Shown here one piece after another: positions 5,018 to 60,436 of a stretch of DNA of 64,000 nucleotides. The notes under the pieces were generated by a model. The model did no database searches. It was given only the letters and a program-made list of their open reading frames with translations, and was not told the origin of the DNA. The stretch lies in the NCBI GenBank assembly GCA_004292595.1, contig RDXM01000106.1, positions 4,946 to 68,945 of the forward strand, in the 5' to 3' direction. The DNA comes from Candidatus Kapaibacterium sp. (lineage in GTDB: Bacteria; Bacteroidota; Ignavibacteria; Kapaibacteriales; UBA4661). The first letter of the stretch is position 1. The number at the start of each line of letters is the position of its first letter. Made by a program: the position numbers and the translations under genes.

Positions 5018-6304
5018 TCACACCGCATACCGATAGCCATCGCAACGCTGGACAATCTTGCAATATTTGTAGCTCACGCCTTGAACAGTGCCGTTTTTAT
5101 CCGTAATATTAAAACTACCTGACGACCGCACCGCCACTTTGCCCTCGTGTGTTCCACGCTTTGCACCGCTTGGAACTACCGCTTTGACCATATCGCCTGT
5201 TTGAAATCCTTTGACACTTTTTGCGCCCTTCGCACTCGTGCGTGGAAAGCCGTATTTGTCCACACGGCACATTTGGCGATTGCCCCAGCCTTGCGCTGTA
5301 ATGGTGAGCGGGCGCATTCCTGCGTCTATTCGTACTGCTTCGCCGCTTGCACCAACACACGCCGCATCTATCCAATGCGCTTTTGCGTACCCTTGGCGGT
5401 TGCGATTGTACTTTGTTCGCCCGCCACTACCAAGCTCAACGGGCAAACCAAATAATTGCAAACGATTATACAATTCCCATCGTGGTGCGTTCACCGCCGC
5501 CGTGTCTTTGAGCGGCATTCGTGCTTGCTTGTGCAGATGTTCGTGTCCAAATTCTTCCGCCGTTTGTGTGCCTTTGCGCTCGTTGCATTTGCGACAAGCA
5601 AGCGTCAGGTTTGACACGCGATTTGAGCCGCCACGTGCTTTCGGAATGATATGCTCTACCTCAAGCGGAACATCCTTTGCCGTGCAGTATGCGCACCTGC
5701 GCTGCCATTTTTCCAGCAAATATTCCCGCACTTCGTAGCCTTGTAACGCGCCTTGCTGGTATTCTACACCTGAAATTTCCGCATCCTGCATCTTCTGTGT
5801 GTCGAAGCGCACGAGTTCTTGACTCATGCTTTTTACGGGCGACAACCGCGTGAGGCGTTGCACCCACGTTGTTATGTTTGCCAAACGGCTTTCGAGCGAT
5901 GGCGGCAGCCAAGCACCACGATTACCGTGGCGTGGGCGTGTTCGGTTCAAAAAACGTGGTTTGCGATAGCGTGTGTGGCGATTGCGCCGTCCGCGTCGCA
6001 CACCGCGCCGTTGCTCCAATGCTTCGTGGACGCGCTGCCCTCGGTGTGTGAGTTCGGCAGCAAACACTACCTCGCCCGTCGTTTCCTCTACCAGAGCAAT
6101 ACCTGTAGTTTTGCTTCCTGGGTCGAGTTTTGCCCGCAACGCTCGTGGCGTTGCATCGGGATAAGAACGCTTCAAAATAATCGTAAACGGAAACCTCCGA
6201 TAGACTGCCGCTTTGCCTTCGCCAAGCAGCATACGCGCTCGCTTGGGGCGACACGGTGCAAGAGGTCGTTTGTCCGTATCTAGCACAAAAACTTTTTGCA
6301 TCAA
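5018..6304 (-). CDS. iscB: IscB, an OMEGA-class RNA-guided endonuclease of the RuvC/HNH type that is ancestral to Cas9
   Basis: The 428-aa protein shows the full IscB domain order. The N-terminal PLMP-like domain reads VFVLDTDKRPLAPCRPKRARMLL. RuvC-I is KLDPGSKTTGIALV. An Arg-rich bridge helix follows (RRGVRRGRRNRHTRYRKPRF). RuvC-II is EISGVEYQQGALQGYEVREYL. The HNH domain is CAYC...EVEHIIPKARGGSNRVSNLTLACRKCNERKG. RuvC-III is AKAHWIDAACVG. A C-terminal TAM-interacting-like beta domain completes the protein. Confidence 0.85.
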   Translation of the reverse strand: MMQKVFVLDTDKRPLAPCRPKRARMLLGEGKAAVYRRFPFTIILKRSYPDATPRALRAKLDPGSKTTGIALVEETTGEVVFAAELTHRGQRVHEALEQRRGVRRGRRNRHTRYRKPRFLNRTRPRHGNRGAWLPPSLESRLANITTWVQRLTRLSPVKSMSQELVRFDTQKMQDAEISGVEYQQGALQGYEVREYLLEKWQRRCAYCTAKDVPLEVEHIIPKARGGSNRVSNLTLACRKCNERKGTQTAEEFGHEHLHKQARMPLKDTAAVNAPRWELYNRLQLFGLPVELGSGGRTKYNRNRQGYAKAHWIDAACVGASGEAVRIDAGMRPLTITAQGWGNRQMCRVDKYGFPRTSAKGAKSVKGFQTGDMVKAVVPSGAKRGTHEGKVAVRSSGSFNITDKNGTVQGVSYKYCKIVQRCDGYRYAV

Positions 6305-6560
6305 AAATACTCCTTAAAGAGTGTCGCGGCTTGCACCGCGTAATGGTCGCCTCGACAATGTTTTAACGGCTTTTTGCACTCAACACACTGGCTTACACCG
6401 TCCGCCTGTTTAATGTTGAGCGACAGAGCGTAAGACTGGCAAGCATCCTACGGTGTCCTGACCGAAAAAACGTAGATTACTCTCTACAAGAGCAATCTGA
6501 GTCTGGTCAATGTCGGCTTGTATTTCCTACAAGCCACCCGTCTTTAGCCGGTGGTGATTG
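6305..6560 (-). ncRNA. candidate omega-RNA (IscB guide RNA scaffold) in the iscB 5' leader
   Basis: About 250 nt of non-coding sequence lie between the iscB start codon and the left-end hairpin. The region is rich in local stems, for example gtcGCGGCttgcaCCGCgtaatggtcgcctcGAC and the terminal CCACCC/GGTGG hairpin. The position matches where IscB omega-RNAs are known to be encoded. The guide segment would lie at or beyond about 6555. Confidence 0.4.
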
Positions 6561-6836
6561 ACAATGTGCATCTCCGAAAACTGTGAAAAAGTATGTGTAA
6601 TTGATTGCGTGTAGAAATGATACATGATGCACTTTAGAGGATTCAAACATTGTGCCAATCGCTGCAAAGGCTCGTAAAATCTGGATAAAAAAAGCACAAA
6701 AAAAACGCACAAAAAAAAACGCACAAAAAAGGACGTACAAAAAAAGCTGGACAAAGAGCCTCGAAAAACCTCTTTGATAACCACAACTTTTTTGTACGTC
6801 CTGAATGTAATAATTTTCTGTTTCGTTTTCGCTTTT

Positions 6837-7436: not shown

Positions 7437-7480
7437 AGAATCATGAGAGAGTCAATATTCGTCAAAGCAATACAATTCAA

Positions 7481-7834
7481 TTACTTGTTCTGAATTTCTT
7501 GCTTCTTTTCCTGTTGTGGGTGCTGCTTTTGTTCTTGCTTTTGTTCTTGTTCGCCAATGCGCCGAGCGCGATTTCGTGCGCTGTCGAGGATTTGCCGCAA
7601 GCGTTCTGGTTTCCCAGCTAATTCCTGAAAACGCTGCCGAAAAGAAAATTCGGTAAATCCGTGCTGTTTCAACACCTCCGCAACCCGCTTATTTGCTTGG
7701 TTGCTATCAAGAAATTGCTCCCGCGCAATAATCACTTCCGTGTAGGTTTGCATAAAAATTTCATCGTCATTCGACCACCGCGAACACGCCGCCAGAGCGC
7801 AGCACAACACGATTCCAAGCAATATTCGTTTCAT
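7481..7834 (-). CDS. hypothetical lipoprotein
   Basis: Signal peptide with lipobox (MKRILLGIVLCCALAACS) and an E/Q/K-rich C-terminus. Confidence 0.45.
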   Translation of the reverse strand: MKRILLGIVLCCALAACSRWSNDDEIFMQTYTEVIIAREQFLDSNQANKRVAEVLKQHGFTEFSFRQRFQELAGKPERLRQILDSARNRARRIGEQEQKQEQKQHPQQEKKQEIQNK

Positions 7835-7846
7835 GTATTATCCTGA

Positions 7847-8539
7847 TTATCTTTGTATTCGTTCGTGCGCAAAAGCGAGTATTTGCGCCACTTGCTGGTC
7901 AATCGAAAGAGCGGACGTGTCAATTTCAATCGCATCGGTGGCTTTGGTAAGCGGGCTGATTTCGCGCTCAGAATCTTGACGGTCGCGCTCGCCGAGCTGG
8001 GCGCACATTTCATCAAGCGTGATGTTTGCTGCGCTCGCGCCAGCACCAAGCTCCGCCAAACGCCGCCGCGCCCGCTCTTCTAGCGACGCAACAAGGAAAA
8101 TCTTGAGTTCTGCTTGCGGAAAAACGACCGTGCCAATATCGCGCCCGTCCATGACCACGCCGCCTGCGCTGCCCAGTTCGCGCTGCCGCTCGACCATTGC
8201 AGAGCGCACCACGCCGAGTGCGCTCACGCCGCTCACGGCTTCGGTTACTTCATGCGAGCGTATTTCCGCGCTTACGTCTTCGCCATTCAGCAACGTGCGT
8301 TGTCCGTCGGTGCTTGGTAAAAGCTCAATTCGTGCGCTCTGCAATATTGCTTGCAGAGCGTCGTTGTGAATTGCCGCACCCGCTCGCAAGGCTGCAAGCG
8401 TGATTGCGCGGTACATTGCGCCTGTGTCGATGTACACGTAGCCGAGCGTGTGTGCTATGTTGCGGGCAGTGGTGCTTTTTCCCGAACCCGCCGGACCATC
8501 CAGCGCAATAATGATGCGCCGTTCAGAAGATTGTGGCAT
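7847..8539 (-). CDS. cmk: cytidylate kinase
   Basis: IIIALDGPAGSGKSTTARNIAHTLGYVYIDTGAMYRA: a P-loop with the CMP-kinase signature. Confidence 0.9.
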   Translation of the reverse strand: MPQSSERRIIIALDGPAGSGKSTTARNIAHTLGYVYIDTGAMYRAITLAALRAGAAIHNDALQAILQSARIELLPSTDGQRTLLNGEDVSAEIRSHEVTEAVSGVSALGVVRSAMVERQRELGSAGGVVMDGRDIGTVVFPQAELKIFLVASLEERARRRLAELGAGASAANITLDEMCAQLGERDRQDSEREISPLTKATDAIEIDTSALSIDQQVAQILAFAHERIQR

Positions 8540-8716
8540 TGGTGTTTACGGTATGTTTACGGTGTGTTCACAGTGTCAGTTGTAGTCAATTATTCCAGCA
8601 AACAAGCCGCTAAGTTACGAGAATTTTCAGAATTGCGCCGTAAAATTTTGAGCATGGTTTTTGCATCATTACCACCGTTACTTTGTTCAATACCTTTACA
8701 AACTTCTCCTTCTCGC

Positions 8717-11700
8717 ATGAAACCTCGCTTTTGCGGCACTCGCACGTGCATTTATCTTTTCGCGCTTGGTTGTCTCATTTTAGAATGCGCCTTTGGTCTC
8801 AGTCTTGGAATGATACGACCAGCAATGGTGAATGCTTCCCCGCGCAAAAACACTGCAAACACAAGCAATGACAATGCTTTGAAGCAATCGCACGAGCAAA
8901 CAATCTACGTGAAAATGCGCCCGCGCATTCACTCGGAAAGACTGGCACGGAAATGGCTTCAATCCTTTCTGCGGAGCGTTTTTGTACAAGTTTCTGCGCC
9001 ATCGTTCTTTGAAAATAACAGAAATACTATTCTTCCTACACAGCAGCATTTCTTCAAGAGTGGCACAGACATTCTTGTCTGTGAGCGTTGGCGCGGGATG
9101 CTAGCGGAAACACAGACAAGAATGTCTGTGCCACGGAAGCCTGATTTTACAGGGCTTTCAGAACCTCTCTCATTTGCCCAAGGCGTAATCGCAGAAAGCA
9201 TTCACACCTTTCGGCTTGGAAACGCCGTCATTGCTCGCTTTCAGCTTCCGCAGAATGTTTCTACGGAAAAATTATGCAGTGTGCTGGAAGAGCAGCGCGA
9301 GTGCGTAGAATACGCCGAAAGCGCACAAACACTCGCTCCTCGCCAAATTCAAACACCAACACAAGTAACCGACCCGCTTGCCGCGCAGCAATATCACCTC
9401 GACCGCATCCAAATGCGTGAAGCATGGACAGCCGCATGGAATCAGGCTTCTGGCTCTTCCGCTCGGCAGCCCGATAGCAGCATGGTAATTGCCGTTGTGG
9501 ATACAGGCGTGGATTGGGAGCATGAAGAATTAGCGGCAAATATTTGGACAAATCCCGCCGAAAGCGGCATGGATGCAAGCGGACGCGACAAACGCTTCAA
9601 TGGCATTGACGACGACCGCAATGGGAAAATTGACGATTGGCACGGTTGGGATTTTGTCGGTAGCATTTCCGAAGATGAGCGCGAGGCAGGCTTATTTCGT
9701 GAAGATAACGACCCCAAACCCCGCATCAACGCTACTCTCGACCCCGCAGAGCAGTTGCAACACGGCACACACGTCGCTTCCACACTCGCTGCGCTGATGG
9801 ACAATGGCAAAGGCGGCGTAGGAATCGCGCCACGATGCCGCATTCTGCCGATAAAATGCTCGACCGATGGCTCGCGTGTTGGCGGGATTTCCCGTCCTTA
9901 CGAAGCGGTGCTGTATGCTGCGCAAATGGGCGCGAAAATTATTGTGTGTAGCTTTGGAGGCGGCGTATTTAGTCGCTTCGAGCAGGAAGTCATTCACACC
10001 GTGAATAGTATGGGCGCACTCGTCGTTGCCGCCGCAGGAAACGACGCACAAGTGAGCGACAATGCGGACTTTCCCGCTTCCTACGACAAAGTATTGTGTG
10101 TTGGTGCGAGTTTGCAGAGCGACATTGCTGCTTCGTACAGCAATTACGGCTTGAAAGTTCATGTGTTTGCACCTGGCGACCGCATCACCAGCGCGATTAT
10201 TGGCAACAGATATAGCAACGAATGGTCGGGAACATCAATGGCAGTGCCGATTGTAGCGGGTGTGGCAGCACTGGTGCGCCTTCAAAACCCCGCGTGGTCG
10301 CCCGAAGCGGTGATTCAGCAGATTCGTGCAAGCTCAGACAATGTTCTTACAAACCAAAGAACCACGCGCCCTCTGGGCTATTTCGGTAGAATAAACGCGC
10401 TCAAAGCACTCACGACGCACCCTCCGGGACTAACGATTGCAGAAACAAGCATTAGTGCGGCAGGTGGCGTGATGAACGATGCCGTTCCAACACAGGTAAC
10501 GATTCGCTGCCGCAATCTTCTCCAAGCCGCACAAAATGTACGTTTGCTGCTGGTTTCGCTGGACAATCGCGCAAGTATTGTTGGTGAATTGCAAACGCTC
10601 GGAAGCATTGCAAACAACGACGAAAAAACGGCGCAATTCAGCATTCAACTTGAACCAAGCGCATTTCAAGGTGCGGCGCAAACCACGCAAAACGGCACGA
10701 TTGCTCGTACGGCGGAGTTTGCACTGGTGATGCTTGCAGATAATCAAATTGGCAATGAGAATTACTCGAATTACGAGCGCGTCTCCCTTCCGTATTCACT
10801 TCGTCCGCAGAATGGCGCACAAATACTGGCTTCCGCGCAATTAAACTTCGGAACTGCCGATGTTGTAAACAGCACACTCAGTTCTTTGCCAAGTTCTTTG
10901 CCAACATTTACCAAAACAGCGAATCTCACCCTGAGAAATTTCGGCACAGAAAGCTGTACGCTTCTTTCCATGCAGCTTTCGGGCGTGAATCCATCAGATT
11001 TTTCAGCGCAAATGCCCGCTTCTCCGCTCGCTGCGGGAGCGACGGCGCAAGTTCCTATTCAATTTCGTTCTCAACAAGCAATGGCGGGGCTTCGCACGGC
11101 GCGAATCACAACAGAAGTGCAATCAGCGCAGGCGGGAACGCAAGGGAATACGGGCTTTGGCAGTACAAGTTTTGGCAGCATTCAAGGCGGGTATGATTTT
11201 TCGAGAGAACGCGAGCAGTACCGCGAAATCACGGATGGAAACTCGCTTCGCCCCACGCCAACAGCACCATTGGACGATATTCAAACAGACGTGAATCTTG
11301 GTTTTTCGTTCGCAATCAACGGCACACGCTACGAGCGTGTAACGGTCAGCTCGAACGGTTTTTGCGCTTTCGCGCCCGCATCAACGCTTGTTTCGCAAAG
11401 TACGCCCGTTTTTTCGCCATTAAGCACAAGTCTCCGCGCAAATGCGTATATTGCAGCCTTCGCCCGCGACCTTGTTGCTGCCGCGCCGAATGCGAGTATC
11501 AGCACGAAAACCGAGGGTGCTGCACCGAATCGGGTCTGCATTCTGCAATGGCAAAATATGAACGCCATGCAAACGGCAAAACGCTCTGCACGCGAGACGG
11601 ATACTGCTCTTACGGTTTCAATGCAACTCCGATTCTATGAAAATTCCAATGTGATTGAATGCGTTTTTGGCAAATGCCGCGCAAGCAGGTTTTTCGATGG

Positions 11701-12310
11701 CGAATGCGGTGTTCGCGGCACGGAAATACAGCCAAGCATCGCGCTACAAGGCGCATCAATACACGATGTTCAGAGTCGGCGCGTGTCGGATGATATTTCG
11801 GCTTCGTGGGCAAATTCGGTAGAATCGCGCTCGCACGAGGACAAATGCGAAATAACGCCACGTCTCGCGCCAGAAGAAGGCACGATTTTTCGCTGGACAC
11901 CGCGCCTTGCAACGTCTCCACGTGTGCGCACGGCACAGACGTTTCTCCGCCAAACCGACCTTCGCGTGAACGTTCCCGCGCTGCAAATGACTTCTGTTTT
12001 TCAGCAAAATACACCACAACGTCAGGAAAATGATGAATACAGAATTTCACCAAACCCCGCCCGCGATGAAGCAACGGTGCGCTTTGTCGCCGAATCTGGC
12101 ATGACGCTCACGTGTTCGGTGAAAAATAGTCTTGGCGCGGAAGTCTGGCAAGAGCGCATTAATGCTCATGCGGGCGAGAATTTCTTCGTTTTGCCCGTGC
12201 GAAGTTTTGCAAGCGGCGTGTATTTTGTAACCATCATAAAACCCTTGAATGCCGCAGTGTATCAAAGGTTACAGCAAAGATTACAGCAACGTTTAGTTGT
12301 TGTGCATTAA
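8717..12310 (+). CDS. secreted subtilisin-like serine protease (peptidase S8) with an I9 propeptide and a C-terminal T9SS sorting domain
   Basis: A signal peptide starts at the ATG at 8717 (MKPRFCGTRTCIYLFALGCLILECAFG). The listed ORF start at 8351 is a spurious upstream extension. The S8 catalytic triad motifs are present: AVVDTGVDWEHEE (Asp), HGTHVAST (His) and GTSMAVPIVAGVAAL (Ser). The C-terminus carries a Por_Secre_tail (ISPNPARDEATVRF...GVYFVTII). Confidence 0.8.
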   Translation: MKPRFCGTRTCIYLFALGCLILECAFGLSLGMIRPAMVNASPRKNTANTSNDNALKQSHEQTIYVKMRPRIHSERLARKWLQSFLRSVFVQVSAPSFFENNRNTILPTQQHFFKSGTDILVCERWRGMLAETQTRMSVPRKPDFTGLSEPLSFAQGVIAESIHTFRLGNAVIARFQLPQNVSTEKLCSVLEEQRECVEYAESAQTLAPRQIQTPTQVTDPLAAQQYHLDRIQMREAWTAAWNQASGSSARQPDSSMVIAVVDTGVDWEHEELAANIWTNPAESGMDASGRDKRFNGIDDDRNGKIDDWHGWDFVGSISEDEREAGLFREDNDPKPRINATLDPAEQLQHGTHVASTLAALMDNGKGGVGIAPRCRILPIKCSTDGSRVGGISRPYEAVLYAAQMGAKIIVCSFGGGVFSRFEQEVIHTVNSMGALVVAAAGNDAQVSDNADFPASYDKVLCVGASLQSDIAASYSNYGLKVHVFAPGDRITSAIIGNRYSNEWSGTSMAVPIVAGVAALVRLQNPAWSPEAVIQQIRASSDNVLTNQRTTRPLGYFGRINALKALTTHPPGLTIAETSISAAGGVMNDAVPTQVTIRCRNLLQAAQNVRLLLVSLDNRASIVGELQTLGSIANNDEKTAQFSIQLEPSAFQGAAQTTQNGTIARTAEFALVMLADNQIGNENYSNYERVSLPYSLRPQNGAQILASAQLNFGTADVVNSTLSSLPSSLPTFTKTANLTLRNFGTESCTLLSMQLSGVNPSDFSAQMPASPLAAGATAQVPIQFRSQQAMAGLRTARITTEVQSAQAGTQGNTGFGSTSFGSIQGGYDFSREREQYREITDGNSLRPTPTAPLDDIQTDVNLGFSFAINGTRYERVTVSSNGFCAFAPASTLVSQSTPVFSPLSTSLRANAYIAAFARDLVAAAPNASISTKTEGAAPNRVCILQWQNMNAMQTAKRSARETDTALTVSMQLRFYENSNVIECVFGKCRASRFFDGECGVRGTEIQPSIALQGASIHDVQSRRVSDDISASWANSVESRSHEDKCEITPRLAPEEGTIFRWTPRLATSPRVRTAQTFLRQTDLRVNVPALQMTSVFQQNTPQRQENDEYRISPNPARDEATVRFVAESGMTLTCSVKNSLGAEVWQERINAHAGENFFVLPVRSFASGVYFVTIIKPLNAAVYQRLQQRLQQRLVVVH
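9059..9134. repeat. family 1 palindromic repeat copy in inverted orientation, lying in frame within the S8 protease propeptide
   Basis: agTGGCACAGACATTCTTGTCTGTGagcgttggcgcgg...CACAGACAAGAATGTCTGTGCCAc. It translates in frame as GTDILVCERWRGMLAETQTRMSVPRK, between I9 propeptide segments. Confidence 0.6.
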
Positions 12311-12337: not shown

Positions 12338-12429
12338 AGTGGCACAGGCATTCTTGCCTGTGTTTGTCGCCTAAAACCAGTACCAACACTCACAGACAAG
12401 CTGAGGGAATCCCTCAGGTCTGTGCCACC
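12338..12429. repeat. family 1 palindromic repeat copy, carrying an internal 18-bp palindromic insertion
   Basis: agTGGCACAGGCATTCTTGCCTGTGtttgtcgcctaaaaccagtaccaacactCACAGACAAG[ctgagggaatccctcagg]TCTGTGCCAc. Confidence 0.6.
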
Positions 12430-12436
12430 TCTGTAC

Positions 12437-12552
12437 ACGACAAAACCTCTGAAAGGTGCATAAAATCAGACTTCAGTGGCTTGAGGCTTCTTGCCTGTGT
12501 TTGTCGTCTGAAACCCGCACCAACACTCACAGACAAGAATGTCTGTGCCACT
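12437..12552. repeat. family 1 palindromic repeat copy with an extended left arm, in tandem with the previous copy
   Basis: acacgacaaaacctctgaaaggtgcataaaatcagaCTTCAGTGGCttgaggcttcttgcctgtgtttgtcgtctgaaacccgcaccaacactCACAGACAAGAATGTCTGTGCCACt. Confidence 0.6.
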
Positions 12553-15130: not shown

Positions 15131-15218
15131 TCAGGCTTCAGTGGCTTGAGACATTCCTGTCTGTGTTTGTCGCCTGAACCCTTCACCAACACTCACAGAC
15201 AGGAATGTCTGTGCCACT
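15131..15218. repeat. family 1 palindromic repeat copy
   Basis: tcaggCTTCAGTGGCttgagacattcctgtctgtgtttgtcgcctgaacccttcaccaacactCACAGACAGGAATGTCTGTGCCACt. Confidence 0.6.
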
Positions 15219-16221: not shown

Positions 16222-16299
16222 AGTGGCACAGACATTCCTGTCTGTGTTTGTCGCCTAGAACCAGCACCAATACTCACAGACAAGAATGTCTGTGCCACT
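16222..16299. repeat. family 1 palindromic repeat copy
   Basis: agTGGCACAGACATTCCTGTCTGTGtttgtcgcctagaaccagcaccaatactCACAGACAAGAATGTCTGTGCCACt. Confidence 0.6.
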
Positions 16300-21085: not shown

Positions 21086-21109
21086 TTGAATTCAAGGGAT
21101 GCAATTTGG

Positions 21110-21145
21110 TATGAAGTTTGCACCAACACTTACAGGCAAGAATGC
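21110..21145. repeat. family 1 palindromic repeat, right half only (truncated copy)
   Basis: gcaccaacacttACAGGCAAGAATGCCTGTGCCACt. The left hairpin is absent. Confidence 0.5.
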
Positions 21146-21203
21146 CTGTGCCACTAAGGTTTTTAGAAACTACATTTTTGCCATTTATACTTTTCCGTTC
21201 ACT

Positions 21204-24200
21204 ATGCTCCGTTTCGCTACTTTTTGCTTTTTTTTTGCTACAATCAACATCCTCCAAGCCCAGCAACCAAGCGGATTTCCCGCAGACATGGAATCCCGCT
21301 TGCAACAGGAACGCCTCGCAGGACTCGTCCACACCATACACGTAACGGTGAATGATGACGACTACACCTTCAAAGGCACATCGCGCGTTGAGTTCACGAA
21401 CAACACGCCCGACACGCTGCGCCAAATCTTCTTCCACGCACATTTCAACGCTTTTCAGCCGAATAGTTTGACGGCAAAGCGCGTGGCGGCAATCGGTCCG
21501 AACCGCTTAAAACCTGAAACCTTTGCGAATTTGAAACCCAGCGAAATTGGCAAATTAGAAATATTGCCCGGAACAAGCACCGTAGCCGGTATCGGTGCGG
21601 CGTTCACGGTAGAACGCTTGGGGACGATTATTCGACTGGATTTGTCCAAACCGCTTTTGCCCGGGGAGCGCACCACGCTTGAGTTTGCGTTTGAGGGACA
21701 AGTGCCAGTGCAGGTGCGGCGTTCAGGGCGCAATAATGCTCAGGGTGTGCGCTATTCGATGGCGCAATGGTTTCCGAAATTGTGCCAATACGACCAGCAC
21801 GGCTGGCAAAATAACCAGTTTGTGCTGCGCGAATTTTACGGCGTGTGGGGCAAGTACGATGTGAAAATTACGCTGCCCGCAAAGTACGTCGTGGGCGCGT
21901 CGGGCGACCTCCAAAACCCGCTTGAAATGGGATACGGCTACGAATTCGACCGCGATTCGGTGAAACTTCCTGCGCCTGACAGCGAAAAGCCGCAAGGCAC
22001 AAAAACATGGCACTTCGTCGCCTTTCCCGTGCATGATTTCGCGTGGGTGGCGGATGCGGACTACATTCACCGCGTTGTGAAAATGCCTACTTCTTCAGCA
22101 ATTTCACCAAACATGACCTTTCACATTCTTACCAAACCCAAGTACGATGCGGTCTGGAAGAATGCGACGGACTGGCTGCCGCGTATTTTCCACTTTTTGG
22201 GCGAAAAATATTTGCCGTATCCGTACAAACAATTCACCTGTACGCAAGCGGGCGACGGCGGTATGGAGTACCCGAACCTAGTAATGATACGCTCTTCGGA
22301 CTACAACGGCACATTGGGAACAGTCGCGCACGAGGCGATTCACCAATGGTTTTACGGCATGGCGGCGAACAACGAAACCAAACACGCGTGGATGGACGAA
22401 GGCATCACGGATTATCTCACGGACCGCATTATGTCGGAAGAGTTCAACATTGACGAACAGACGCACTCTACGTGGCTTGAAAACGCGCTTATTCCGCGTC
22501 GCAAGGATGCGTTGGAATCGAACCGCGCATTTCTCCGCGTGTACGCGCTTGGCTACGACGAACCGCTCTCTATCCCGCATGACCGCTTCAACGAGGACAT
22601 GACCGCCGTGATGGTCTATCGCAAAGGTTCGGCGTGGATGCGGCAGTTTGAGTATTCGTTTGGAAAAAATAAAATGGATGAATTACTCAGGAATTATCAG
22701 GGTTTGTGGCGATTCCGTCATCCGTATCCGCCAGATTTTGAGAAAATTGCGTCGGAAACCTTCGGACAGCGCATGGATGAAGTCTTTGACACGTTCTTGC
22801 GTGGAACAGAACTGCCCGACTACACGCTCCAATCCTTGCGTTCTGAGCCGACAAGCGACGGCAAATACAAAAACACGTTGCAGCTAACGAAGCGAGAACG
22901 CGCCCACGTACCGCTCAATCTCTACGCAAGTGATGGTGCGGGTTCTGTGGCTAAAATTCATATTCCGAGCGATATGCTGAATGCGCCGAATAAGGACACA
23001 AGCCGCCTCGCACCTTGGTTTTGGGCAGCAGGCGACTACACGGCGGAGTTTATCACGCCGCGCCCCATAACGAGTGTTCGACTGGACACCGCAGGAAATC
23101 TGCTTCGGAACGACCTTACGAAAAATCAAATTCAAGCTGGTGGATTATTTCCCGCAATGCCAGAAGTGAAACTTGGCTTTATGACGCGCTTCGATGAAGC
23201 ACAGCCGCTTGATTATTATGGCGTGTCGGTGCGCCCTTCGGTGTGGTACGACCCGCTTGGGGGCTTACAGCTTGGGGTTCGGGCGGATGGTGTTGGTGGT
23301 TACAATACGCCGAAACTCACGGCTGGGGCGTATTACAATTTGGGGAATCAGCGTTTTGATTGGCAGCTAGGATATTCACAAATGCTGGGCGGTGCAGGTG
23401 CGTCGGGAACTGCGCAAGTAGAGGCTCGTTTTTTTAGTATGGACGGCGTTACGGCATTCACAAACCGTATTCTGACTGATGTTCGACCTGTGCGCTATGC
23501 GCGTGAAAATTTGCAGATTAGTTCGATTTATACAGATATTTGGAACTTCCGCGACCCGTCGCATTATGGCGGGGAATTGTTCATACGCAATGAGCAGTTT
23601 ATACGGTTTGGAACAGTTGCCGAACAGCGTTGGAAGACAGGTTTTACGCAGATGGAAGCGAATTTTGCAATCACTTTATCGGGCAATGTATCGGTACGTC
23701 CGCAAATTCGTTTTGAATGGGCAGAAAACCTTGTAAGCGGCAATATTGCTGTGCTTTCGGCACGATTATTTGGCAATCTTTCCTTAGGAACGCCGTTTGC
23801 AACGCGCTATTCACTGCAAAGTGGCACAGCCATTGAACGCTTTGAAAATATTCCGTCGCGCTTCACGCGCTTTGCCGCATACAGTCTGGGTTTACCCGTC
23901 TTTACGCCTGGCGGAGCAGGTTTTGTGCGCTCTACGCCCGAACTTATGGAAGGAATTGCTGCCGTTAATCTCTTTCTTGGCAATCGCACACTGCGACAAT
24001 CTTTCGGTTTAGACCTCATCGGTGTTGATGCTCTGAAGCCTGGAATATGGCTGGCGGCTGGGCTTGCGGCGGCGGAGTTTGGCAGAAATTCAGGCAGTTT
24101 GCTGAATACATTCCACTTCGATTCTGGCATTTCCCTCAGCATCAATCTCGCCGATACACGCTCGGCAGGCAGGTATCTTTTCATGTTCCAAGATGAAGTA

Positions 24201-24305
24201 TCGTTGACCGCCTACGTGCCGCTTGTTTCCTACATTCCTGGGCGGAATTGGGTGCTTGGCTACGACGGTGTGCGCATTGGCGTAAGTACGACGATTCCGC
24301 GATAA
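21204..24305 (+). CDS. secreted M1-family zinc metallopeptidase with a long C-terminal extension, possibly an outer-membrane beta-barrel
   Basis: The signal peptide MLRFATFCFFFATINILQAQQ begins at the ATG at 21204. A GDGGMEYPNLVMI motif is present, and the gluzincin signature HEAIHQWFYGMAANNETKHAWMDEG fits HExxH-x18-E. The C-terminal 450 aa show alternating-hydrophobic beta patterns. Confidence 0.7.
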   Translation: MLRFATFCFFFATINILQAQQPSGFPADMESRLQQERLAGLVHTIHVTVNDDDYTFKGTSRVEFTNNTPDTLRQIFFHAHFNAFQPNSLTAKRVAAIGPNRLKPETFANLKPSEIGKLEILPGTSTVAGIGAAFTVERLGTIIRLDLSKPLLPGERTTLEFAFEGQVPVQVRRSGRNNAQGVRYSMAQWFPKLCQYDQHGWQNNQFVLREFYGVWGKYDVKITLPAKYVVGASGDLQNPLEMGYGYEFDRDSVKLPAPDSEKPQGTKTWHFVAFPVHDFAWVADADYIHRVVKMPTSSAISPNMTFHILTKPKYDAVWKNATDWLPRIFHFLGEKYLPYPYKQFTCTQAGDGGMEYPNLVMIRSSDYNGTLGTVAHEAIHQWFYGMAANNETKHAWMDEGITDYLTDRIMSEEFNIDEQTHSTWLENALIPRRKDALESNRAFLRVYALGYDEPLSIPHDRFNEDMTAVMVYRKGSAWMRQFEYSFGKNKMDELLRNYQGLWRFRHPYPPDFEKIASETFGQRMDEVFDTFLRGTELPDYTLQSLRSEPTSDGKYKNTLQLTKRERAHVPLNLYASDGAGSVAKIHIPSDMLNAPNKDTSRLAPWFWAAGDYTAEFITPRPITSVRLDTAGNLLRNDLTKNQIQAGGLFPAMPEVKLGFMTRFDEAQPLDYYGVSVRPSVWYDPLGGLQLGVRADGVGGYNTPKLTAGAYYNLGNQRFDWQLGYSQMLGGAGASGTAQVEARFFSMDGVTAFTNRILTDVRPVRYARENLQISSIYTDIWNFRDPSHYGGELFIRNEQFIRFGTVAEQRWKTGFTQMEANFAITLSGNVSVRPQIRFEWAENLVSGNIAVLSARLFGNLSLGTPFATRYSLQSGTAIERFENIPSRFTRFAAYSLGLPVFTPGGAGFVRSTPELMEGIAAVNLFLGNRTLRQSFGLDLIGVDALKPGIWLAAGLAAAEFGRNSGSLLNTFHFDSGISLSINLADTRSAGRYLFMFQDEVSLTAYVPLVSYIPGRNWVLGYDGVRIGVSTTIPR

Positions 24306-42394: not shown

Positions 42395-42476
42395 CTTCAG
42401 TGGCACAGACATTCTTGTCTGTGATTCTTCAAACTCTGATAAGGACTCACAGACAAGAATGTCTGTGCCACTGAGG
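42395..42476. repeat. family 1 palindromic repeat copy with a divergent core
   Basis: CTTCAGTGGCACAGACATTCTTGTCTGTGattcttcaaactctgataaggactCACAGACAAGAATGTCTGTGCCACTGAGG. Confidence 0.6.
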
Positions 42477-60318: not shown

Positions 60319-60436
60319 ACACGACAAAACTTATGAAAAGCGCGTAAAATCAGGCTTCAGTGGCACAGGCATTCTTGCCTGTGTTCATCGCTTGAACCTC
60401 GCACCAACACTCACAGACAAGAATGTCTGTGCCACT
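60319..60436. repeat. family 1 palindromic repeat copy with an extended left arm
   Basis: acacgacaaaacttatgaaaagcgcgtaaaatcaggCTTCAGTGGCACAGGCATTCTTGCCTGTGttcatcgcttgaacctcgcaccaacactCACAGACAAGAATGTCTGTGCCACt. Confidence 0.6.

What the first reader, a model, noticed from the sequence alone, without database searches (positions are those of the whole stretch)
9059..9134. Palindromic repeat inserted in frame inside the I9 propeptide of a secreted T9SS subtilase
The family 1 copy at 9059-9134 lies inside the coding region of the S8 protease (8717-12310) without breaking the frame. It is translated as ...GTDILVCERWRGMLAETQTRMSVPRK.... Sequence with I9-propeptide character lies on both sides (IYVKMRPRIH... 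before, NAVIARFQLPQ...ECVEYAE after). The element therefore adds about 25 residues to the inhibitory propeptide rather than sitting in a leader. In-frame tolerance of a MITE inside a protease pro-domain is unusual. It could alter propeptide folding or autoprocessing, or mark a recent insertion that is still being purged.
Basis: seen in the sequence. Interest (0 to 1): 0.7.

Follow-up and report, generated by a model that had tools for sequence, protein, structure and literature searches.

The report
REP doublet translated inside a protease pro-region
A small mobile palindromic repeat (a REP doublet, or REPIN) sits in frame inside the disposable pro-region of a secreted subtilisin-like protease and has been kept there in two related species; this is real, but it is a further example of a phenomenon already described for such repeats.

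Summary
At 9060-9134 two perfect 24-nt inverted arms with a 27-nt spacer lie inside the open frame of an S8 protease (ATG 8717 to stop 12310).

The repeat is a REP doublet (REPIN), not a generic MITE. Each arm is GTGG plus an 8-bp hairpin. The same unit flanks REP-associated tyrosine transposase genes in related genomes.

The doublet is the core of a longer element of about 141 nt (about 9037-9177, 47 codons). The pro-region carries about 66 residues more than orthologues that lack the element, not 25.

AlphaFold models place the insert in the alpha1-beta2 loop of a beta-alpha-beta-beta-alpha-beta pro-domain. That domain is I9-like in topology but gives no Pfam I9 match.

A sister species (89% nucleotide identity across the gene region, dS 0.37) has the element at the same site with both arms unchanged. 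It differs nearby only by in-frame indels. Codons upstream of the element are under purifying selection. So the element is translated, and the insertion is old rather than on its way out.

Orthologues at 56% identity or less lack the segment.

In-frame intragenic REP dimers are already documented (Di Nocera 2013; Rickettsia RPEs). This is a new member of a known kind.

Side result: the same REP core occurs across at least five phyla, including in frame in a Gemmataceae valS gene.

The parts
8717..12310 (+). Gene for a 1197-aa secreted subtilase. Order of parts: signal peptide, pro-domain carrying the insert, S8 catalytic domain, beta-rich middle region, T9SS C-terminal sorting domain.
   Evidence: Open frame. 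Pfam Peptidase_S8 at residues 255-554, E 2.6e-42. Orthologue in L001 called from the same ATG. Whole-gene dN/dS 0.118. D262, H349 and S507 are invariant in the alignments.
8717..8848 (+). Inferred Sec signal peptide (residues 1-44: MKPR..., a hydrophobic helix, then VNA|S).
   Evidence: AF2 helix at residues 8-26. Orthologues have equivalent hydrophobic N-termini. dN/dS 0.17. The cleavage site was read by eye; no signal-peptide predictor was available.
8900..8980 (+). Pro-domain beta1 (residues 62-67, TIYVKM) and alpha1 (residues 75-88, RLARKWLQSFLRSV), upstream of the insert.
   Evidence: AF2 elements E62-67 and H75-88. The spacing matches E71-77 and H86-96 of the insertion-free orthologue P0002. 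IYVKMRPRI aligns with the conserved IYLKTKQRI.
8981..9036 (+). About 19 further extra codons (SVFVQVSAPSFFENNRNTILP region) of unknown origin, just upstream of the element.
   Evidence: Absent from orthologues at 56% identity or less. No other copy in the window or in 120 fetched loci. Holds the 12-nt and 3-nt in-frame indels relative to L001. AF2 pLDDT below 50.
9037..9177 (+). Full inserted repeat unit (about 141 nt, 47 codons; ends uncertain by about 6 nt). It has degenerate outer inverted repeats and the REP doublet at its core, and is read in frame as TQQHFFKSGTDILVCERWRGMLAETQTRMSVPRKPDFTGLSEPLSF.
   Evidence: Alignment to six full-length copies. Only 2 of its 6 frames are open, one of them the frame in use. 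dN/dS 0.71 over codons 107-157. For the non-arm codons my hand calculation gives about 1.2.
9060..9083 (+). Left REP unit: GTGG followed by the hairpin CACAGACA-TTCT-TGTCTGTG.
   Evidence: Variants elsewhere show compensatory GAC..GTC to GGC..GCC changes and GTGG/GTAG alternation.
9084..9110 (+). Spacer of the doublet. It is the family's canonical 28-nt spacer in reverse orientation and forms a further 8-bp inner stem.
   Evidence: Spacer comparison. Fold. 5 of 27 positions differ from L001.
9111..9134 (-). Right REP unit, the exact reverse complement of the left one. It contains the in-frame ATG at 9122.
9200..9322 (+). Remainder of the pro-domain: beta2, beta3, alpha2 and beta4, ending in the conserved VEYAE.
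   Evidence: AF2 elements E162-167, E170-176, H183-191, E197-202 at pLDDT about 70-77. They align with all orthologues. dN/dS 0.155.
9479..10378 (+). Peptidase S8 catalytic domain.
   Evidence: Pfam PF00082. Foldseek matches to subtilisins, thermitase and deseasin. dN/dS 0.045.
12044..12241 (+). T9SS type A C-terminal sorting domain.
   Evidence: NCBIfam TIGR04183 scores 24.1 bits against a cut-off of 23. Pfam Por_Secre_tail scores 25.9 bits, below its cut-off of 27.
12339..12551 (.). Two further family copies in the spacer downstream of the protease gene: 12339-12428, whose right hairpin loop is expanded, and 12476-12551.
   Evidence: The orthologous spacer in L001 holds only a degenerate remnant.
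15141..15217 (.). Intergenic family copy with a degenerate left arm.
16223..16298 (.). Intergenic canonical doublet with a 28-nt spacer.
21131..21154 (-). Single REP arm at the 5' edge of the open frame 21090-24305, probably in the 5' untranslated region.
   Evidence: The orthologous arm in L008 differs at 3 of 24 positions, including one compensatory pair, and the surroundings are full of indels.
42400..42471 (.). Intergenic doublet with a 24-nt spacer.
60360..60435 (.). Intergenic doublet within a full-length unit that has outer inverted repeats.

Best explanation
A non-autonomous REP-doublet element (a REPIN at the core of a unit of about 141 nt) inserted into the DNA that encodes the alpha1-beta2 surface loop of the protease's N-terminal pro-domain. 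Elements of this kind are mobilised in trans by a REP-associated tyrosine transposase (RAYT). The insertion happened in the common ancestor of this organism and the MAG GCA_013298775.1.

The gene encodes a Kapabacteria-type, T9SS-secreted S8 subtilase. The inserted length is a multiple of three, and the frame in use has no stop codon. The REP arms themselves are stop-free in all six frames. So the gene stayed open.

The whole pro-protein, with 47 element-encoded residues, is translated and exported. I infer that the extra loop is discarded with the pro-domain on maturation, which would explain why it is tolerated.

The peptide encoded outside the arms drifts freely. The two 24-nt arms are held constant at the nucleotide level. 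The likely causes are the constraints that keep REP units uniform (RAYT recognition or gene conversion) or a use of the -56 kcal/mol hairpin in the mRNA.

Shown: the anatomy, family membership, conserved position, open frame, and selection pattern.
Inferred: translation, export, removal with the pro-domain, and the reason for arm conservation.
For: Family identity:
- The arm is GTGG plus an 8-bp hairpin. Variants carry compensatory stem changes and GTAG/GTGG alternation.
- Doublets have a modal 28-nt spacer in the sister genome.
- There are 12 arms in the 64-kb window and 43 in 125 kb of the sister genome.
- Of the 8 repeat loci in the window, 6 others are intergenic and one (a single arm at 21131) sits at the 5' edge of an ORF. 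Only the protease copy lies deep inside a gene.
- In L026, ORF 1018-1464 scores 85.8 bits against NCBIfam NF047646 'REP-associated tyrosine transposase' (cut-off 80). It is flanked by the same arms at 921, 973 (+) and 1482 (-).
- RAYT homologues in Pirellulales, Tepidisphaeraceae and Xenobia are flanked on both sides by REP variants that share the core CAGRCATTCYTGYCTG with covarying outer stems. In the Chlorobi locus one such unit lies just downstream of the gene.

Insertion:
- The segment is absent from 14 orthologues at 42-57% identity and present in the 91% orthologue at the identical site.
- AF2 places it between alpha1 and beta2, with pLDDT below 50-63 across it. The insertion-free orthologue has a confident beta-alpha-beta-beta-alpha-beta domain with a 7-residue loop there.

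Coding:
- dN/dS is 0.17-0.27 upstream, 0.155 downstream and 0.045 in S8. Fisher p = 3e-6 for codons 1-106.
- Indels nearby are in frame.
- The other two frames of 8717-9036 hold 6 and 3 stops.
- No terminator-like site lies at the element.

Arms:
- 0 of 48 nt changed, against 10-15% divergence around them (P = 0.006 to 0.0004).
- An orthologous non-coding arm changed at 3 of 24 positions.

Mobility:
- Presence/absence differences of other copies between the two genomes.

Precedent:
- Intragenic REP dimers encoding 20-30 residues are described (PMC3733652).
Against: - No transcript, ribosome-profiling or protein data exist for this organism. Translation through the hairpin is inferred from evolution only.
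- No orthologue with a clean empty site at intermediate distance was found. The exact insertion boundaries, and the origin of the about 19 extra codons at 8981-9036, remain open.
- No RAYT gene was found in the 64-kb window or in the fetched loci of the sister genome. The link to a transposase rests on other genomes.
- The pro-domain's inhibitor/chaperone role and its removal are assumed from what is known of subtilases. Pfam I9 does not match.
- The comparison behind the claim of nucleotide-level constraint on the arms is small: 0/48 against 3/24.
Confidence: 0.8

Rival explanations
1. The repeat lies in the 5' untranslated region. Translation would start downstream of it, for instance at the in-frame ATG 9122 inside the right arm. 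The same arm ATG heads a mechanically listed ORF at 12539. The upstream open frame would then be accidental.
For: The arm carries an ATG that is in frame here. At other loci the doublet sits just upstream of genes. Di Nocera et al. note that many REPs annotated at N-termini are really extragenic.
Against: - A protein starting at 9122 or later would lack a signal peptide and beta1 of the pro-domain. All orthologues have both upstream of the equivalent point.
- Codons 1-106 are under purifying selection in this frame (p = 3e-6).
- Indels nearby are multiples of three.
- The other frames are closed.
- The independent gene call in L001 uses the same ATG.
Confidence: 0.06
2. The gene is decaying or already non-functional. 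The insertion would have crippled pro-domain folding, and the frame is open only because too little time has passed.
For: The insert is large (about 66 residues) for a domain of about 70 residues. It is predicted with low confidence. The element-encoded, non-arm codons evolve neutrally.
Against: - Whole-gene dN/dS is 0.118 and the S8 domain 0.045, over dS 0.37 accumulated after the insertion.
- The catalytic D, H and S residues are intact.
- 1,190 codons remain open in two species.
- The pro-domain flanks are themselves constrained (dN/dS 0.155-0.27).
Confidence: 0.05
3. The hairpin has been co-opted. The perfectly conserved 24-bp stem in the coding region would act at the RNA level, for example as a translational pause about 115 codons in, or as a double-strand RNase site that sets protease output. 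It would be kept for that reason rather than merely tolerated.
For: Both arms are unchanged (0/48) while the spacer (5/27), the flanks and an orthologous non-coding arm (3/24) changed. The predicted stability is -56.5 kcal/mol, z = -8.
Against: REP units are kept uniform genome-wide for reasons unrelated to the host gene. The comparator sample is tiny. Nothing links the structure to expression. This reading extends the main explanation rather than excluding it.
Confidence: 0.12
4. Assembly artefact: a dispersed repeat wrongly placed or collapsed into the gene during metagenome assembly.
For: REP-rich genomes fragment and mis-join at repeats. Many RAYT homologues sit on contigs under 2 kb.
Against: Two independent assemblies of two species show the same element at the same codon. 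The copy has its own distinctive features, namely degenerate outer repeats and a spacer variant, and its flanks have diverged between the two.
Confidence: 0.02

Closest known systems
Intragenic GTAG-type REPs (Di Nocera, De Gregorio & Rocco 2013, BMC Genomics 14:522, PMC3733652)
   Same: A GT[A/G]G-tagged short palindrome. It is mostly extragenic, often occurs as inverted dimers with 20-100-nt spacers, and is occasionally entirely inside ORFs, where dimers encode 20-30 residues. The paper reports the GTGG variant of the tag for Opitutus terrae. It lists repair genes and aminoacyl-tRNA synthetase genes as recurrent hosts, which matches the valS case I found in L065.
   Different: This particular REP sequence is not among the REP-encoded peptides searched in that paper's supplement. 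The host lineage (Kapabacteria) and host gene (pro-region of a T9SS subtilase) are new. Here the dimer sits inside a longer 141-nt unit with its own outer inverted repeats.
REPIN-RAYT systems (Bertels & Rainey 2011, PMC3116915; Bertels et al. 2017, PMC5581495)
   Same: Two inverted REP units form a long hairpin. There are many near-identical copies. A single Y1 (HUH) transposase gene is flanked by the REPs. Copies differ in presence between close relatives.
   Different: Described REPINs are by definition extragenic, and the best-studied ones are proteobacterial. Here the core of the REP unit is shared across at least five phyla. The RAYT of this genome itself was not seen. The paper notes slowly evolving, widely scattered RAYT groups. 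Assigning this RAYT to one of those groups was not tested.
Rickettsia palindromic elements (RPE; Ogata et al. 2000 from my own knowledge; reviewed in PMC10969869)
   Same: Palindromic mobile elements of about 100-150 bp inserted in frame in protein-coding genes, translated, and located where the fold tolerates them.
   Different: No sequence relationship was tested or is expected. No RAYT association is described for RPE-1. RPEs are frequent inside genes of one genus. Here only 1 of the 8 repeat loci in the window lies deep inside a gene, and none of the other arms in the fetched loci of the sister genome does.
Subtilase N-terminal pro-peptide (MEROPS I9 / Pfam PF05922 Inhibitor_I9)
   Same: It lies between the signal peptide and the S8 domain. 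Predicted topology is beta-alpha-beta-beta-alpha-beta, and it ends in a conserved strand (VEYAEP) just before the mature domain.
   Different: No Pfam I9 match. No significant profile match to solved structures or to the BPN' pro-peptide. Inhibitor or chaperone activity and cleavage were not tested.

Membership tests
REP / REPIN (RAYT-associated repetitive palindromes) | A unit of about 20-40 nt made of a 5' GT[A/G]G tetranucleotide followed by a short palindrome | tested here: met
   The unit is GTGG + CACAGACA-TTCT-TGTCTGTG. GTAG variants and compensatory stem changes are seen among 227 arms.
REP / REPIN (RAYT-associated repetitive palindromes) | Many dispersed copies, mostly between genes | tested here: met
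   12 arms at 8 loci in 64 kb, with 0 expected by chance. 43 arms in 125 kb of the sister genome. Only the protease copy lies deep inside a long open frame in these two low-GC genomes.
REP / REPIN (RAYT-associated repetitive palindromes) | Inverted doublets with a short spacer that can fold into one long hairpin | tested here: met
   Doublets have modal spacers of 28 nt (Kapabacteria) and 11 nt (Planctomycetota). The protease copy folds at -56.5 kcal/mol with a 24-bp stem.
REP / REPIN (RAYT-associated repetitive palindromes) | A cognate Y1/HUH transposase gene (RAYT) flanked by the same REPs | tested here: met
   Met in related genomes. L026 ORF 1018-1464 scores 85.8 bits against NF047646 (cut-off 80) and lies between arms at 921/973 (+) and 1482 (-). 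Similar arrangements occur in L108 and L119-L121, and L118 has one REP unit downstream of the gene. Not found in this window or in the fetched parts of the sister genome, so the RAYT of this organism is unseen.
REP / REPIN (RAYT-associated repetitive palindromes) | Evidence of movement or turnover (presence/absence between close relatives) | tested here: met
   The doublet at L001 5791-5866 (within about 340 nt) is absent at window 7478-7523. The two window copies at 12339-12551 face only a degenerate remnant in L001.
MITE in the strict sense (terminal inverted repeats plus target-site duplication) | Terminal inverted repeats | tested here: met
   Outer repeats GTACACGACAAAA / TTTTGTCGTGTAC are present in six full-length copies and degenerate in the protease copy.
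MITE in the strict sense (terminal inverted repeats plus target-site duplication) | Target-site duplication | tested here: inconclusive
   No direct repeat is evident by eye at the ends of the aligned full-length copies. No empty site is available for the protease copy.
Subtilase with I9 pro-peptide | S8 catalytic domain with the Asp-His-Ser triad | tested here: met
   PF00082 at E 2.6e-42. D262, H349 and S507 are invariant.
Subtilase with I9 pro-peptide | Sequence match to Inhibitor_I9 (PF05922) | tested here: not met
   No hit at E<=0.1. The profile of insertion-free pro-domains found no subtilase pro-peptide in the PDB sequences. hhalign to the BPN' pro-peptide gave probability 0.5%.
Subtilase with I9 pro-peptide | beta-alpha-beta-beta-alpha-beta fold directly N-terminal to the catalytic domain | tested here: met
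   Predicted only. P0002: E71-77, H86-96, E104-107, E110-115, H121-129, E135-140 at pLDDT 73-85. Window protein: same order, with the insert after the first helix.
Subtilase with I9 pro-peptide | Autocatalytic removal and temporary inhibition | not testable with these tools
   Needs biochemistry.
T9SS cargo protein | C-terminal sorting domain | tested here: met
   TIGR04183 scores 24.1 against a cut-off of 23. Pfam PF18962 scores 25.9, just below its cut-off of 27.
T9SS cargo protein | N-terminal Sec signal peptide | tested here: inconclusive
   Basic N-terminus, predicted helix at residues 8-26, and a VNA|S site read by eye. No signal-peptide predictor was available.
Rickettsia palindromic elements | In-frame residence in protein-coding genes, with the encoded peptide at a tolerant site | tested here: met
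Rickettsia palindromic elements | Sequence homology to RPE families | not tested
   No RPE sequences were at hand. The host phylum and the unit sequence make membership unlikely.

The most novel reading that the evidence does not exclude
Two linked readings are not excluded.

(1) The perfectly preserved 24-bp stem inside the coding region is used by the host. It could act as a translational pause or as a double-strand RNase target that tunes output or export of a potentially harmful protease.

(2) This REP family, whose core is shared by RAYT loci in Planctomycetota, Acidobacteriota, Verrucomicrobiota, the Chlorobi/Kapabacteria group and other phyla, and whose unit is stop-free in all six frames, is a cross-phylum lineage of elements that can take up in-frame residence even in essential genes (valS in a Gemmataceae).
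Probability: 0.15. Interest if true: 0.65.

Novelty: new member of a known kind. Interest (0 to 1): 0.4.

Why it matters
- The case is dated and documented. A REP doublet has survived inside a gene over species-level divergence (dS 0.37) while the gene stayed under strong purifying selection. So such insertions can be long-lived protein 'decorations' rather than transient damage.
- The site suggests a simple rule for where they are tolerated: a surface loop of a domain that is discarded after folding.
- For annotation, it warns against trimming such genes to a start codon downstream of the repeat.
- The side result may deserve its own study. One REP core is shared, together with its transposase, across several phyla and is also found in frame in valS. 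REPIN-RAYT systems are usually described as lineage-bound and extragenic.

Tried and rejected
- Exact-protein look-up of the window's protease: not on record.
- Rfam: no family for the element. Only chance hairpin matches to microRNA models, far below their thresholds. Nothing for the conserved leader at 8520-8740.
- Full-text search for the arm sequence: 0 papers. The REP-encoded peptides are absent from the supplement of PMC3733652.
- I9 by sequence: Pfam, a PDB profile search and hhalign were all negative. Foldseek on the full model returned only catalytic domains.
- Search for a protein recurrently encoded next to the arms, by all-against-all BLAST of 1,543 neighbouring ORFs in 118 sequences: nothing recurrent.
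- Origin of the extra codons at 8920-9036: no similar sequence in any fetched DNA.
- Terminator or promoter created by the element: none on the coding strand.
- Stop-free arms as an adaptation: rejected as evidence. By my rough estimate about 1 in 10 random 24-mers would be stop-free in all six frames.
- Counting arms inside long open frames in high-GC genomes: unreliable, because spurious open frames are common there. Only valS in L065 was verified. The UvrA-like frame in L058 is left as a candidate, because the arms fall between ATPase modules and could lie between genes.
Full report
**1. The observation**

Window 9060-9083 and 9111-9134 are perfectly complementary 24-nt arms, GTGGCACAGACATTCTTGTCTGTG and its reverse complement, separated by 27 nt. 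The arm occurs 12 times in the window at up to 3 mismatches. Dinucleotide-preserving shuffles give none.

The 1197-aa product has a Peptidase_S8 domain at residues 255-554 (E 2.6e-42). It also has a T9SS C-terminal sorting domain at 1110-1175. That domain is above the NCBIfam cut-off and just below Pfam's. No Inhibitor_I9 match was returned.

**2. What the repeat is**

Each arm is itself GTGG followed by an 8-bp hairpin (CACAGACA TTCT TGTCTGTG). Among 227 arms collected from the window and 117 fetched loci, the common variants differ by compensatory changes in the stem (GAC..GTC to GGC..GCC). The tetranucleotide alternates between GTGG and GTAG. That is the signature of GTAG-type REPs. The inverted doublet is the REPIN arrangement (PMC3733652, PMC3116915).

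The spacer of the protease copy is the family's usual 28-nt spacer (TTTGTCGCCTAAAACCCGCACCAACACT) in reverse orientation, so this is an ordinary family member.

There a 148-aa ORF (1018-1464) scores 85.8 bits against NCBIfam NF047646 'REP-associated tyrosine transposase' (cut-off 80) and 36.5 bits against Pfam Y1_Tnp. It is bracketed by the same arms at 921 and 973 (+) and 1482 (-).

Homologues of this transposase at 50-60% identity are found in MAGs labelled Chlorobi, Pirellulales, Tepidisphaeraceae and Xenobia. I fetched four of these loci. Three are flanked on both sides by REP units with the same core CAGRCATTCYTGYCTG and covarying outer stem pairs. The Chlorobi locus has one such unit just downstream of the gene.

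No RAYT gene lies in the window or in the fetched pieces of the sister genome. The element has no Rfam family, and no paper in the library holds its sequence.

**3. The insert is larger than 76 nt**

Several copies share, outside the doublet, the inner flanks ...TTTCTTCAAT|AGTGGCAC and GTGCCACT|GAAGCCTGATTTTA...TTTCAGAG. They also share the outer inverted repeats GTACACGACAAAA / TTTTGTCGTGTAC. The protease copy retains recognisable but degenerate versions: TACACAGCAGCATTTCTTCAAG on the left and GGAAGCCTGATTTTACAGGGCTTTCAGAACCTCTCTCATTTGC on the right. This places the unit at about 9037-9177, which is 141 nt or 47 codons, with ends uncertain by about 6 nt.

A further 19 or so codons just upstream (8981-9036) are also absent from distant orthologues. 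They match nothing else that I fetched, and their origin is unexplained.

**4. Where it sits in the protein**

The database holds one close orthologue: P0001, 91% identical, from GCA_013298775.1. It also holds a series at 42-57% identity, named Kapabacteria where named. The distant ones share IYLKTKQRI, then a helix, two strands, a helix, and VEYAEP before the catalytic domain. They lack the repeat-encoded segment.

AlphaFold2 on the insertion-free P0002 gives E71-77, H86-96, E104-107, E110-115, H121-129, E135-140 at pLDDT 73-85. On the window protein it gives E62-67 and H75-88. Then come residues 89-161 at low confidence, with a weak helix over the doublet-encoded residues 116-136. After that come E162-167, E170-176, H183-191 and E197-202.

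By register, the insert occupies the alpha1-beta2 loop: 73 residues against 7. The pro-domain is therefore I9-like in position and predicted topology, but not by any sequence test.

**5. Is it translated?**

The syntenic locus L001 carries the same element at the same codon. Between the two genomes:

| Region | dN/dS |
|---|---|
| Whole gene (dS 0.37) | 0.118 |
| Codons 1-45 | 0.17 |
| Codons 46-106 | 0.27 |
| Rest of the pro-domain | 0.155 |
| S8 domain | 0.045 |

For codons 1-106, the excess of synonymous over non-synonymous change gives Fisher p = 3e-6.

The only length differences near the element are 12 nt and 3 nt. The other two frames of 8717-9036 contain 6 and 3 stops. The independent gene call in L001 starts at the same ATG. 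A protein starting after the repeat would lack both the hydrophobic N-terminus and beta1.

I therefore regard the leader hypothesis as very unlikely. No direct expression data exist.

**6. How the element itself evolves**

Over codons 107-157, dN/dS is 0.71 with a halved dS. From the numbers I calculate about 1.2 for the non-arm codons, which is neutral peptide drift. The 48 arm nucleotides show no change at all. Given 10-15% divergence around them, that has P = 0.006 to 0.0004. The spacer differs at 5 of 27 positions.

One orthologous non-coding arm serves as a comparator (window 21131 against L008). It changed at 3 of 24 positions, including one compensatory pair.

Other copies differ in presence between the genomes, so the family has been active or decaying since the split. 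The insertion in the protease is thus old, and its arms are held at the nucleotide level. Whether this reflects REP homogenisation or a role for the mRNA hairpin cannot be decided here. The hairpin is -56.5 kcal/mol, z = -8, with no terminator tail.

**7. Why an open frame is not improbable**

The arm has no stop codon in any of its six frames. The doublet is open in 3 of 6 frames, and the 141-nt unit in 2 of 6. A stop-free 24-mer is not rare by chance, by my rough estimate about 1 in 10. So this explains tolerance without implying adaptation.

**8. Comparison with what is known**

Di Nocera et al. 2013 (PMC3733652) describe GTAG-tagged REPs in eight phyla, including the GTGG variant in Opitutus terrae. 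They report REPs entirely inside ORFs, with dimers encoding 20-30 residues. Recurrent hosts include uvrA and tRNA-synthetase genes. They caution that many N-terminal cases are really extragenic.

A 2024 review calls in-frame fusions by intragenic MITEs 'not unusual' and cites the Rickettsia palindromic elements as the extreme (PMC10969869).

The present case is therefore a new member of a known kind. It is new in host lineage, in host gene and site, and in being datable and demonstrably under selection on both sides.

**9. Seen along the way**

These span Planctomycetota (including the isolate Gemmata algarum JC673 and the SH248 chromosome), Acidobacteriota, Verrucomicrobiota, Eisenbacteria and the Kapabacteria/Ignavibacteria group.

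In a Gemmataceae MAG (L065), a doublet lies in frame in valS. It adds VAQAFLPVQADPAQARMPVPL inside the anticodon-binding domain. Pfam domains lie on both sides in the same frame, and the segment is missing from solved ValRS structures. A UvrA-like frame in L058 holds two single arms, but this case is not resolved.

The window also carries an IscB-like ORF with a HEARO RNA.

**10. Verdict**

But it is a REPIN within a longer unit, it adds 47 (in all about 66) residues, it is old rather than on its way out, and the phenomenon is already described. Interest is moderate (0.4).

Noticed in passing
window 5018-6562 (-): A HEARO (IscB omega) RNA at 6340-6562 (Rfam RF02033, 145 bits against a gathering score of 83) lies directly upstream of a 428-aa ORF at 5018-6304. 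By eye the ORF has HNH-type motifs (CAYC...HIIP...CRKCN). It looks like an IscB-type IS200/IS605 relative. BLAST finds no counterpart of this stretch in the 20.8-kb sister locus L001.
   Followed up: partly
L002-L117 (genome-contig loci): The exact 24-nt REP arm (GTGGCACAGRCATTCYTGYCTGTG) is present in more than 116 stretches of genomes from Planctomycetota, Acidobacteriota, Verrucomicrobiota, Eisenbacteria and Kapabacteria/Ignavibacteria, including cultured isolates. Doublet spacers are typically 11 nt in Planctomycetota and 28 nt in Kapabacteria.
   Followed up: partly
L026 921-1505; L108 2146-2841; L118-L121 around 1325-2067: RAYT genes (NF047646 above cut-off in L026) are flanked by this REP or by variants with the same core and covarying outer stem pairs: GGCAGACA..TGTCTGCC in Pirellulales and Tepidisphaeraceae, GACAGACA..TGTCTGTC in Xenobia. 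The Chlorobi locus L118 has one related unit downstream of the gene. The transposases are 50-60% identical across these groups.
   Followed up: partly
L065 2397-2457 (Gemmataceae MAG GFS_2344): A REP doublet of the same family lies in frame inside valS. It adds about 21 residues (VAQAFLPVQADPAQARMPVPL) within the anticodon-binding domain. The segment is absent from solved ValRS structures 4xkz and 1gax.
   Followed up: yes
L058 336-359 and 2319-2342 (Planctomycetaceae SH248 chromosome): Two single REP arms are read as KKTQTRMSVPP and KKTQTGMSVPL inside an 1838-codon open frame with UvrA domains. Each sits just before a P-loop module. It is unclear whether they are linkers of a fused protein or lie between same-frame genes.
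   Followed up: partly
window 21131-21154; L008 6780-6803: A single REP arm lies at the 5' edge of the 1071-codon frame 21090-24305. It is in frame with two upstream ATGs, but the region is full of indels relative to the orthologue, so it is probably a 5' untranslated region. The orthologous arms differ at 3 of 24 positions, including a compensatory pair.
   Followed up: partly
window about 8555-8665: The spacer between cmk and the protease gene contains a block of about 110 nt that is about 96% identical to the sister genome, more conserved than the adjoining coding sequence. There is no Rfam match. It could be a promoter or leader.
   Followed up: partly
L001 5680-6020; L001 150-400; L011 2800-3050: Some doublets sit inside a second, different longer unit with its own outer inverted repeat (GCTCAATGATTTCAGTTGGAAAGAATCC ... 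CCAGCTGAAATCATTTAGTAC). So the REP doublet is embedded in at least two kinds of composite element.
   Followed up: no
window 12391-12428: In one copy, the loop of the right-hand REP hairpin is expanded by a further small palindrome (CTGAGGGAATCCCTCAG). This looks like a nested insertion or loop expansion.
   Followed up: no
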